From Enterobacteria phage GiZh: a DNA stretch of 64,000 nt. The notes under the pieces are model-generated. The model did not search any database. It was not told the origin of the DNA and saw nothing but the letters and a program-made list of their open reading frames with translations. A program made the translations under genes and the position numbers. The DNA is taken from sequence record NC_054903.1; one strand, given 5' to 3'. Below, piece after piece: positions 57,829 through 58,284 of the stretch; within the stretch, counting starts at the first letter, position 1, and every line of letters starts with the position of its first letter.

Positions 57829-58284
57829 TTATTTTAAATCATCTGCCCAATCAAGTTTAAGAGGCTCTTTATATTCACGATCTAATACGACCGGAATTTG
57901 TACATCACCGCTAAATGATAAGGGCCCAACATTATAAGACAATGTTATATGCGGTGTGTAATCATCAAAATCATGTGTAGCACCTAGTGCCCGCGCATAC
58001 ATGTGTCGACAGCGCAGATATTCAGAATCTAGCACAAGTACAAGAGTCGATCCATCTTGTGTTTTCCATACTTCTAAATGTCCAGAAGAAGCTACTTCAA
58101 AACTTCCGCTTGATGGAACATACGGAACATTTACTCTTGAATAACATATGGTCGAATGAATTTTTTCTCTAGGAACTGGATTAGGAACACGTAAAGAGCG
58201 CTGGAGTTCTTCCAGCGCATCAAGTGTTAATTCTGAAAACTTAGCTGCTACATAAAGACCCGTTGAAAAGTCTTTAAATTCCAT
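57829..58284 (-). CDS. acb1: 2H phosphoesterase (T4 57B / Acb1-type anti-CBASS phosphodiesterase)
   Basis: 151 aa; two H-x-T/S motifs (HSTICYS, HITLSY); position immediately upstream of 57A. Confidence 0.7.

What the first reader, a model, noticed from the sequence alone, without database searches (positions are those of the whole stretch)
57829..58284. Acb1-type 2H phosphodiesterase (gene 57B)
The protein has the two H-x-T/S motifs of the 2H phosphoesterase fold and sits in the 57B position. The T4 57B product is known to degrade cyclic oligonucleotide signals of CBASS immunity. It is a likely anti-defence gene, next to the IP genes and 57A.
Basis: established knowledge. Interest (0 to 1): 0.45.

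Follow-up and report, generated by a model that had tools for sequence, protein, structure and literature searches.

The report
T4 anti-CBASS nuclease gene acb1
This is the well-studied phage T4 gene 57B (acb1), whose enzyme destroys the cyclic-nucleotide alarm signals of the bacterial CBASS defence; the copy here encodes exactly the T4 protein, so it is correct but ordinary.

Summary
The finding is right and already known. An intact 151-codon ORF lies at 57829-58284 on the minus strand. Its product is 100% identical to residues 2-152 of phage T4 gp57B, which is Acb1. All 7 nucleotide differences from T4 are synonymous.

It matches Pfam PF23474 "Acb1" at 202.7 bits against a cut-off of 27. It is 68% identical to the crystallised Erwinia phage FBB1 Acb1, PDB 7T26 (E 4e-62). 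The catalytic HxT/HxT tetrad is H43/T45/H112/T114, equal to T4 H44/T46/H113/T115. The base-stacking residues, the adenine-reading Glu and the C-terminal lid are all present. The tetrad is invariant in 10 homologues down to 40% identity.

Gene order matches T4: gene 1, 57A, 57B, then internal-protein genes. [quoted passage not shown] It also shows a >300-fold CBASS-dependent defect of T4 Δacb1 (PMC9117128).

Two small points are new. The upstream ATG of the T4 annotation is absent here. A TAATG stop/start overlap with 57A is conserved across genera.

Interest is low.

The parts
57829..58284 (-). acb1 (gene 57B) coding sequence: 151 aa plus a TAA stop
   Evidence: ORF. Identical to T4 gp57B residues 2-152. 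Pfam PF23474 Acb1 at 202.7 bits. PDB 7T26 at E 4e-62.
58150..58158 (-). First catalytic motif H43-S44-T45 (T4 numbering H44/T46)
   Evidence: Positions computed and read directly as CAT TCG ACC. H and T are invariant in 10 homologues. Catalytic role comes from PMC9117128.
57943..57951 (-). Second catalytic motif H112-I113-T114 (T4 numbering H113/T115)
   Evidence: reads CAT ATA ACA. Invariant. Catalytic role comes from PMC9117128.
57832..57855 (-). C-terminal lid, residues 144-151 LDWADDLK (T4 145-152), including the stacking residue W146
   Evidence: The lid closes over the bound ligand in the FBB1 structure (PMC9117128). Deleting T4 residues 145-152 abolishes Panoptes activation, which the authors take to confirm that the lid is needed for catalysis (preprint 10.1101/2025.08.21.671373).
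58282..58286 (-). TAATG junction: the 57A stop codon TAA shares one base with the acb1 start ATG (probable translational coupling)
   Evidence: The same TAATG junction occurs in phages SP18, AC4, D486, Aeromonas 25 and Ec_O157kw.
58284..58526 (-). Gene 57A (tail-fibre chaperone, 80 aa), the upstream partner in the same transcription and translation unit
   Evidence: phrog_1002 tail fiber chaperone at E 6e-28; same position as in T4.
58526..59239 (-). Gene 1 (dNMP kinase, 237 aa), first gene of the overlapping 1-57A-57B trio. Context only.
   Evidence: Its stop overlaps the 57A start by one base (coordinates).
57787..57815 (-). Early-promoter-like site (TTTACA-17-TACTAT, with TG) just 3' of acb1, serving the next gene. 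It marks the border between the conserved block and the variable IP region.
   Evidence: It matches the published T4/PST PeSL promoter consensus TTTACW-N17-TAYWAT (PMC4122927).

Best explanation
The ORF is the acb1 gene (gene 57B) of a T4-like phage of the Tequatrovirus type. It encodes a small, metal-independent 2H phosphodiesterase that destroys the cyclic di- and trinucleotide second messengers made by host CBASS CD-NTases, so the CBASS effector is never activated and the phage completes its cycle.

The mechanism below was shown for the identical T4 protein and the FBB1 orthologue. It is inferred here from sequence identity. Four aromatic residues (Y11, W73, F106, W146 in window numbering) stack on the bases, and E140 reads the adenine N6. 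The C-terminal lid (residues 144-151) closes over the ligand. The strained ligand presents the adenosine 2'-OH to the adjacent 3'-5' phosphodiester, above the H43/T45/H112/T114 tetrad. Acid-base catalysis yields a 2',3'-cyclic phosphate intermediate and then a linear 3'-phosphate product (GpAp from 3'3'-cGAMP).

Substrates are 3'3'-cGAMP, cUA, cAAA and cAAG. It does not cleave cGG, cA4 or the 2'-5' bond of 3'2'-cGAMP.

The gene is the last of three minus-strand genes (1, 57A, 57B) whose stop and start codons overlap by one base. It is therefore probably translated by coupling to 57A; this step is inferred.
For: An intact ORF lies at the stated coordinates. The protein is 100% identical to T4 gp57B/Acb1 residues 2-152, with 7 synonymous and 0 non-synonymous differences. 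It matches Pfam PF23474 Acb1 at 202.7 bits against a cut-off of 27, covering profile positions 1-144 of 144. It matches PDB 7T26/7T27 Acb1 at E 4.1e-62 with 68% identity. All catalytic and ligand-contact residues named in the structural paper are present. H43, T45, H112 and T114 are invariant in 10 homologues at 40-84% identity from phages of nine different host genera, from Escherichia to Vibrio and Acinetobacter. Synteny 1-57A-57B-IP matches T4 and Ec_O157kw, where the gene is annotated 'anti-CBASS protein Acb1'. By tblastn, 1484 phage records carry a homologue and 497 of them are at least 99% identical. For biochemistry and genetics of the identical protein see PMC9117128: activity-guided identification of 57B, substrate range, inactivity of H44A/H113A, and a >300-fold CBASS-dependent defect of T4 Δacb1. 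An independent transposon screen found 57B/acb1 dispensable on E. coli K-12 lacking CBASS, with a clear loss of insertions in the gene on a CBASS-expressing host (10.1101/2025.11.20.689424).
Against: There is nothing substantive. No enzymatic test was or could be done on this window's gene. NCBIfam has no model that matches. Many public records still label the gene 'RNA ligase' or 'hypothetical protein'. Single-sequence AlphaFold gave an unusable model (pLDDT 37.9), so the fold rests on 68% identity to a crystal structure and not on a model made here. The upstream ATG of the T4 annotation is missing, so the N-terminus differs from the annotated T4 protein by one Met. The translational-coupling step is inferred from the overlap only.
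Confidence: 0.97

Rival explanations
1. It is a LigT-like 2'-5' RNA ligase or RNA-repair enzyme, as the RefSeq and PHROG label 'RNA ligase' suggests. It would then act on RNA ends, for example in connection with the adjacent phage tRNA cluster.
For: phrog_755 is described as 'RNA ligase'. T4 and several RefSeq records name 57B 'RNA ligase'. There is a faint hit to Pfam 2_5_RNA_ligase2. A tRNA array lies about 1.6 kb downstream.
Against: The 2_5_RNA_ligase2 hit is 13 bits (E 0.11) against a cut-off of 27, whereas Acb1 scores 202.7 bits. The label is an inherited superfamily-level name; the papers read here report cyclic-oligonucleotide cleavage and no ligase activity. The identical T4 protein was purified by activity as the cGAMP-cleaving enzyme, and its deletion abolishes that activity in infected cells (PMC9117128).
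Confidence: 0.02
2. It is an accessory factor for tail-fibre assembly that works with the gp57A chaperone, since the two genes are overlapping and co-inherited throughout the T4-like phages.
For: A one-base stop/start overlap with 57A is conserved across several genera. 57A-57B adjacency holds in all nine sampled relatives.
Against: T4 Δacb1 grows as well as wild type without CBASS (PMC9117128). 57B is non-essential in a transposon screen on E. coli K-12. The protein has a complete enzyme active site for cyclic oligonucleotides.
Confidence: 0.01
3. It is Acb1, but its main selective value or cost in this phage's natural hosts lies outside CBASS. This reading is not exclusive of the best explanation. 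It could clear cAAA signals of type III CRISPR systems. It could also degrade the 2',3'-c-di-AMP decoy and so set off the Panoptes defence.
For: [quoted passage not shown] T4 Acb1 cleaves 2'3'-c-di-AMP at a rate like that for 3'3'-cGAMP and triggers Panoptes when over-expressed (preprint 10.1101/2025.08.21.671373; PMC12657218).
Against: Deleting acb1 from T4 did not change Panoptes defence during real infection (PMC12657218). No infection data for type III CRISPR turned up in the papers read. The CBASS phenotype is large and direct.
Confidence: 0.15

Closest known systems
Phage T4 Acb1 (gp57B, NP_049750.1)
   Same: The amino-acid sequence is identical over all 151 residues, and the length, strand and position match (1-57A-57B-IP). 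All catalytic and ligand-binding residues are the same.
   Different: There are seven synonymous nucleotide changes. The 57A stop is TAA instead of TGA, which removes the extra upstream ATG used in the T4 annotation, so the product is 151 aa and not 152 aa. The downstream neighbour is not T4 ipI but two other IP-type genes.
Erwinia phage FBB1 Acb1 (PDB 7T26 apo, 7T27 with 3'3'-cGAMP)
   Same: It is 68% identical over 141 residues (E 4e-62). The HxT/HxT tetrad, Y11, E140, W146 and the lid are conserved.
   Different: W73 of the window/T4 protein is Phe in FBB1. It comes from a different host genus and has scattered surface substitutions.
2H PDE-9 (PDB 9Q2G/9Q2Y, deposited as 'Anti-CBASS protein Acb1')
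   Same: It belongs to the same 2H phosphodiesterase structural group (group 3), has two catalytic His residues and cleaves 3'3'-cGAMP.
   Different: Sequence similarity is only marginal (E 0.0044). Its lid is N-terminal and not C-terminal. It cleaves 2'3'-c-di-AMP poorly and does not trigger Panoptes, unlike T4 Acb1.
LigT / 2'-5' RNA ligase family (Pfam PF13563) and other 2H phosphoesterases
   Same: It shares the 2H superfamily signature of two HxT/S motifs.
   Different: The match is below threshold (13 bits against 27). The substrate is a cyclic oligonucleotide signal, not RNA ends.

Membership tests
Acb1 (Pfam PF23474, anti-CBASS protein 1) | Full-length sequence match to the family profile above the curated threshold | tested here: met
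   202.7 bits against a gathering score of 27, E 2.6e-60, profile positions 1-144 of 144. 100% identity to the founding member, T4 gp57B.
Acb1 (Pfam PF23474, anti-CBASS protein 1) | Active-site HxT/HxT tetrad (T4 H44, T46, H113, T115) | tested here: met
   H43, T45, H112 and T114 are present. They are invariant across 10 homologues at 40-84% identity.
Acb1 (Pfam PF23474, anti-CBASS protein 1) | Nucleobase-stacking aromatics (Y12, W74, F107, W147), the adenine-N6 contact E141 and the C-terminal lid 145-152 | tested here: met
   Y11, W73, F106, W146, E140 and lid LDWADDLK at 144-151. Residue roles come from PMC9117128.
Acb1 (Pfam PF23474, anti-CBASS protein 1) | Compact 2H phosphoesterase fold | tested here: met
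   68% identity over 141 aligned residues to crystal structure 7T26, which is enough to infer the same fold. A direct model was attempted but was unusable (single-sequence AlphaFold, pLDDT 37.9).
Acb1 (Pfam PF23474, anti-CBASS protein 1) | Metal-independent cleavage of adenosine-containing 3'-5' cyclic di- and trinucleotides, and rescue of the phage from CBASS | not testable with these tools
   Shown experimentally for a protein of identical sequence (T4 Acb1) in PMC9117128 and supported by a transposon screen. Inferred here by identity.
Acb1 (Pfam PF23474, anti-CBASS protein 1) | Genomic position directly downstream of tail-fibre chaperone gene 57A in T4-like phages | tested here: met
   Same order as T4 and Ec_O157kw. 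57A-57B adjacency holds in eight further phages of different genera.
LigT-like 2'-5' RNA ligase (Pfam PF13563) | Sequence match above the family threshold | tested here: not met
   13 bits against a cut-off of 27, E 0.11, partial match only.

The most novel reading that the evidence does not exclude
The evidence does not exclude that this strictly conserved enzyme has a second physiological target in natural hosts, beyond the CBASS signals. It shows zero amino-acid changes against T4, while the neighbouring essential gene 1 has six substitutions and a four-residue deletion. Candidate targets are cAAA of type III CRISPR or other adenosine-containing 3'-5' signalling nucleotides. The conserved TAATG coupling to the tail-fibre chaperone gene 57A may also set the onset of activity about 15 min into infection, as part of the evasion strategy.
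Probability: 0.12. Interest if true: 0.35.

Novelty: already known. Interest (0 to 1): 0.08.

Why it matters
The result matters only as a correct annotation. It shows that this phage carries the standard T4 counter-defence against CBASS, with substrate range predictable from the identical T4 enzyme. It also shows that the labels 'RNA ligase' and 'hypothetical protein' still attached to this gene in hundreds of phage records are outdated. For phage-therapy or host-range prediction, an intact acb1 suggests the phage can overcome CBASS operons that signal with adenosine-containing 3'-5' cyclic nucleotides. It would not overcome those that use cGG or 3'2'-cGAMP. No open question becomes testable through this window that is not already testable with T4.

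Tried and rejected
1. AlphaFold2 on the single sequence gave pLDDT 37.9 and pTM 0.30. The model is unusable, so I ran no fold search. An alignment-based run would have needed the very costly protein database search, which was not justified given 68% identity to a crystal structure.

2. NCBIfam returned no model hit. This is uninformative.

3. I scanned viral contigs for the two junction variants (TAATG against TGATG) to census start-codon usage. Only 2 and 1 contigs matched, too few for a census. I replaced this with an alignment of junctions from 8 phages.

4. I tested the two HxT/S motifs as stand-alone evidence. 16% of shuffles reach two motifs, so I rejected the motif count as proof and relied on homology.

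5. The late-promoter consensus TATAAATA has one minus-strand match inside gene 1 (58882-58889). Across the window there are 11 matches against 11.3 expected, so no weight is given to it.

6. The generic sigma-70 and terminator scan of 56900-59500 was barely above shuffles (14 against 9.7). I used only the two TTTACA-17-TACTAT sites, which coincide with the repeated cassettes.

7. I considered and rejected the RNA-ligase and tail-fibre-assembly readings (see rival explanations).

8. The mechanical plus-strand ORFs inside the gene (57987-58172 and 58001-58144) have no support and were ignored.

Full report
**Observation.** The window has an uninterrupted ORF at exactly 57829-58284 on the minus strand (151 codons, ATG start, TAA stop).
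- The translation has exactly two H-x-T/S motifs: HST at residues 43-45 (window 58150-58158) and HIT at 112-114 (window 57943-57951).
- The motif pair alone is weak evidence. With five His in the protein, 16% of composition-preserving shuffles also show two or more HxT/S.

**Identity.**
- Pfam: PF23474 "Anti-CBASS protein Acb1" matches end to end (profile 1-144 of 144) at 202.7 bits against a cut-off of 27, E 2.6e-60. The generic 2'-5' RNA ligase family reaches only 13 bits.
- PDB: the top hit is 7T26/7T27, Acb1 of Erwinia phage FBB1, at E 4.1e-62 with 68% identity.
- T4: I took the T4 record (NC_000866, 57B at 73952-74410) and aligned it. The window protein is 100% identical to T4 gp57B residues 2-152.
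- DNA: the two coding sequences differ at 7 positions, all synonymous.
- Distribution: megablast finds the gene in 558 phage records, with 100% nucleotide identity in phages slur03/08/14, Aplg8 and SA20RB. tblastn finds homologues in 1484 phage records, 497 of them at least 99% identical.
- Labels: records call it variously "hypothetical protein", "RNA ligase", "putative phosphodiesterase" and, in one recent record, "anti-CBASS protein Acb1".

**Functional residues.** Hobbs et al. 2022 (PMC9117128) define the following for Acb1:
- an HxT/HxT tetrad (H44, T46, H113, T115);
- stacking residues Y12, W74, F107 and W147;
- the adenine-N6 contact E141;
- a C-terminal lid (145-152).

In window numbering (T4 minus one) these are H43, T45, H112, T114, Y11, W73, F106, W146, E140 and LDWADDLK at 144-151. 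All are present.

I also fetched eight more distant homologues and aligned them with the FBB1 sequence: SP18, Klebsiella EI, vB_SdyM_006, RB49, Aeromonas 25, Acinetobacter AC4, Vibrio D486 and RB43 (40-84% identity). H43, T45, H112 and T114 are invariant, and E140 is nearly so.

**Context.**
- Upstream on the coding strand lie gene 1 (dNMP kinase, 58526-59239) and 57A (tail-fibre chaperone, 58284-58526). Each stop codon overlaps the next start by one base.
- Downstream lie two small genes (57499-57756 and 57189-57422). Both carry the MKTFKEF N-terminus shared with T4 IPI and hit the PHROG families "internal head protein" and "internal virion protein".
- Next come homologues of T4 trna.4/.3/.2 (by position; only 'unknown function' PHROG hits) and a ten-gene tRNA array.
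- This is the T4 order 1-57A-57B-ipI-trna.4-.2-tRNAs, with a different IP cassette.
- 57A-57B adjacency holds in every sampled relative.

**Mechanism.** This was shown for the identical protein and is inferred here by identity.
- Acb1 is a metal-independent 2H phosphodiesterase.
- It clamps a cyclic di- or trinucleotide in a U-shaped pocket and rotates the adenosine so that its 2'-OH attacks the 3'-5' phosphodiester over the His/Thr tetrad.
- The reaction passes through a cyclic phosphate intermediate and releases a linear 3'-phosphate product (GpAp from 3'3'-cGAMP).
- It cleaves 3'3'-cGAMP, cUA, cAAA and cAAG. It does not cleave cGG, cA4 or the 2'-5' bond of 3'2'-cGAMP.
- Activity appears about 15 min into T4 infection.
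- T4 Δacb1 grows normally without CBASS but shows a >300-fold defect with active CBASS.
- A transposon screen found 57B/acb1 dispensable on a host lacking CBASS, with a clear loss of insertions in the gene when CBASS was present.
- Later work shows that T4 Acb1 also cleaves 2'3'-c-di-AMP and can trigger the Panoptes system when over-expressed. Deleting acb1 from T4 does not change Panoptes defence in infection.

**Rivals.**
- The "RNA ligase" label is a superfamily-level inheritance. The profile match is below threshold, and the activity-guided purification in T4 identified this protein as the cGAMP-degrading enzyme.
- A role in tail-fibre assembly with 57A is contradicted by the normal growth of T4 Δacb1.
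- An additional physiological target remains possible but is not exclusive.

**Small points that are new to me.**
- In T4 the 57A stop is TGA, which gives ATGATG, and the annotation starts at the first ATG (152 aa). In this window the stop is TAA, which gives ATAATG, so the first ATG is gone and only the second remains.
- The same TAATG stop/start overlap is present in SP18, Acinetobacter AC4, Vibrio D486, Aeromonas 25 and Ec_O157kw. Several homologues start in register with the window's Met1.
- The conserved start is therefore T4's Met2, and published residue numbers are offset by one from the likely mature numbering. This does not affect function.

**Verdict.** The gene is an exact protein-level copy of the founding, experimentally characterised member of its family, so it is already known and of low interest.

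Noticed in passing
window 58282-58286 (-): The 57A stop is TAA here and TGA in T4. This removes the upstream in-frame ATG that the T4 annotation uses as the 57B start (MMEF... against MEF...). The TAATG overlap is conserved in phages of several genera, so the conserved start is T4's second Met, and the Acb1 residue numbering in the literature is probably one too high.
   Followed up: partly
window 57499-57756 (-) and 57189-57422 (-): Two small genes with the MKTFKEF N-terminus of T4 internal proteins (phrog_3499 and phrog_8111) sit where T4 has the single gene ipI. They are only 21-28% identical to each other and to T4 IPI. From my own knowledge, T4 IPI* blocks the GmrSD restriction enzyme, so these may be alternative injected anti-defence proteins next to acb1. 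Their function was not examined.
   Followed up: partly
window 57146-57216, 57444-57514, 57774-57844: Three copies of a ~71-nt cassette (61-83% identical) each precede one of the three genes downstream of acb1. Two copies (57444-57514 and 57774-57844) were called as TTTACA-17-TACTAT early-promoter-like sites. Copies 1 and 3 also carry a short inverted repeat around the -10 box (GATAGGG/CCCTATC and GATGAG/CTCATC). They fit the published PeSL promoter-stem-loop cassettes said to drive gene shuffling in T4-like phages (PMC4122927, PMC2839356).
   Followed up: partly
window 55345-56175 (-): This is an uninterrupted array of ten tRNA genes (Arg, Asn, Tyr, Met/CAU, Thr, Ser, Pro, Gly, Leu, Gln). T4 has eight tRNAs split by the homing-endonuclease gene segB, and relative Ec_O157kw carries two endonuclease genes in its array. 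Here there is no endonuclease, and Asn and Tyr are extra relative to T4. From memory and untested, the CAU tRNA probably corresponds to T4 tRNA-Ile.
   Followed up: no
window 58526-59239 (-): Gene 1 (dNMP kinase) has a four-residue in-frame deletion (T4 EGKE, after VFVFDD) and six substitutions relative to T4. The adjacent non-essential acb1 has none, an unusually strict conservation for an accessory gene.
   Followed up: partly
window 58882-58889 (-): There is a single match to the T4 late-promoter consensus TATAAATA inside gene 1, about 350 nt upstream of 57A. It could contribute to the late onset of Acb1 activity, but matches across the window are no more frequent than chance (11 against 11.3 expected).
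   Followed up: no
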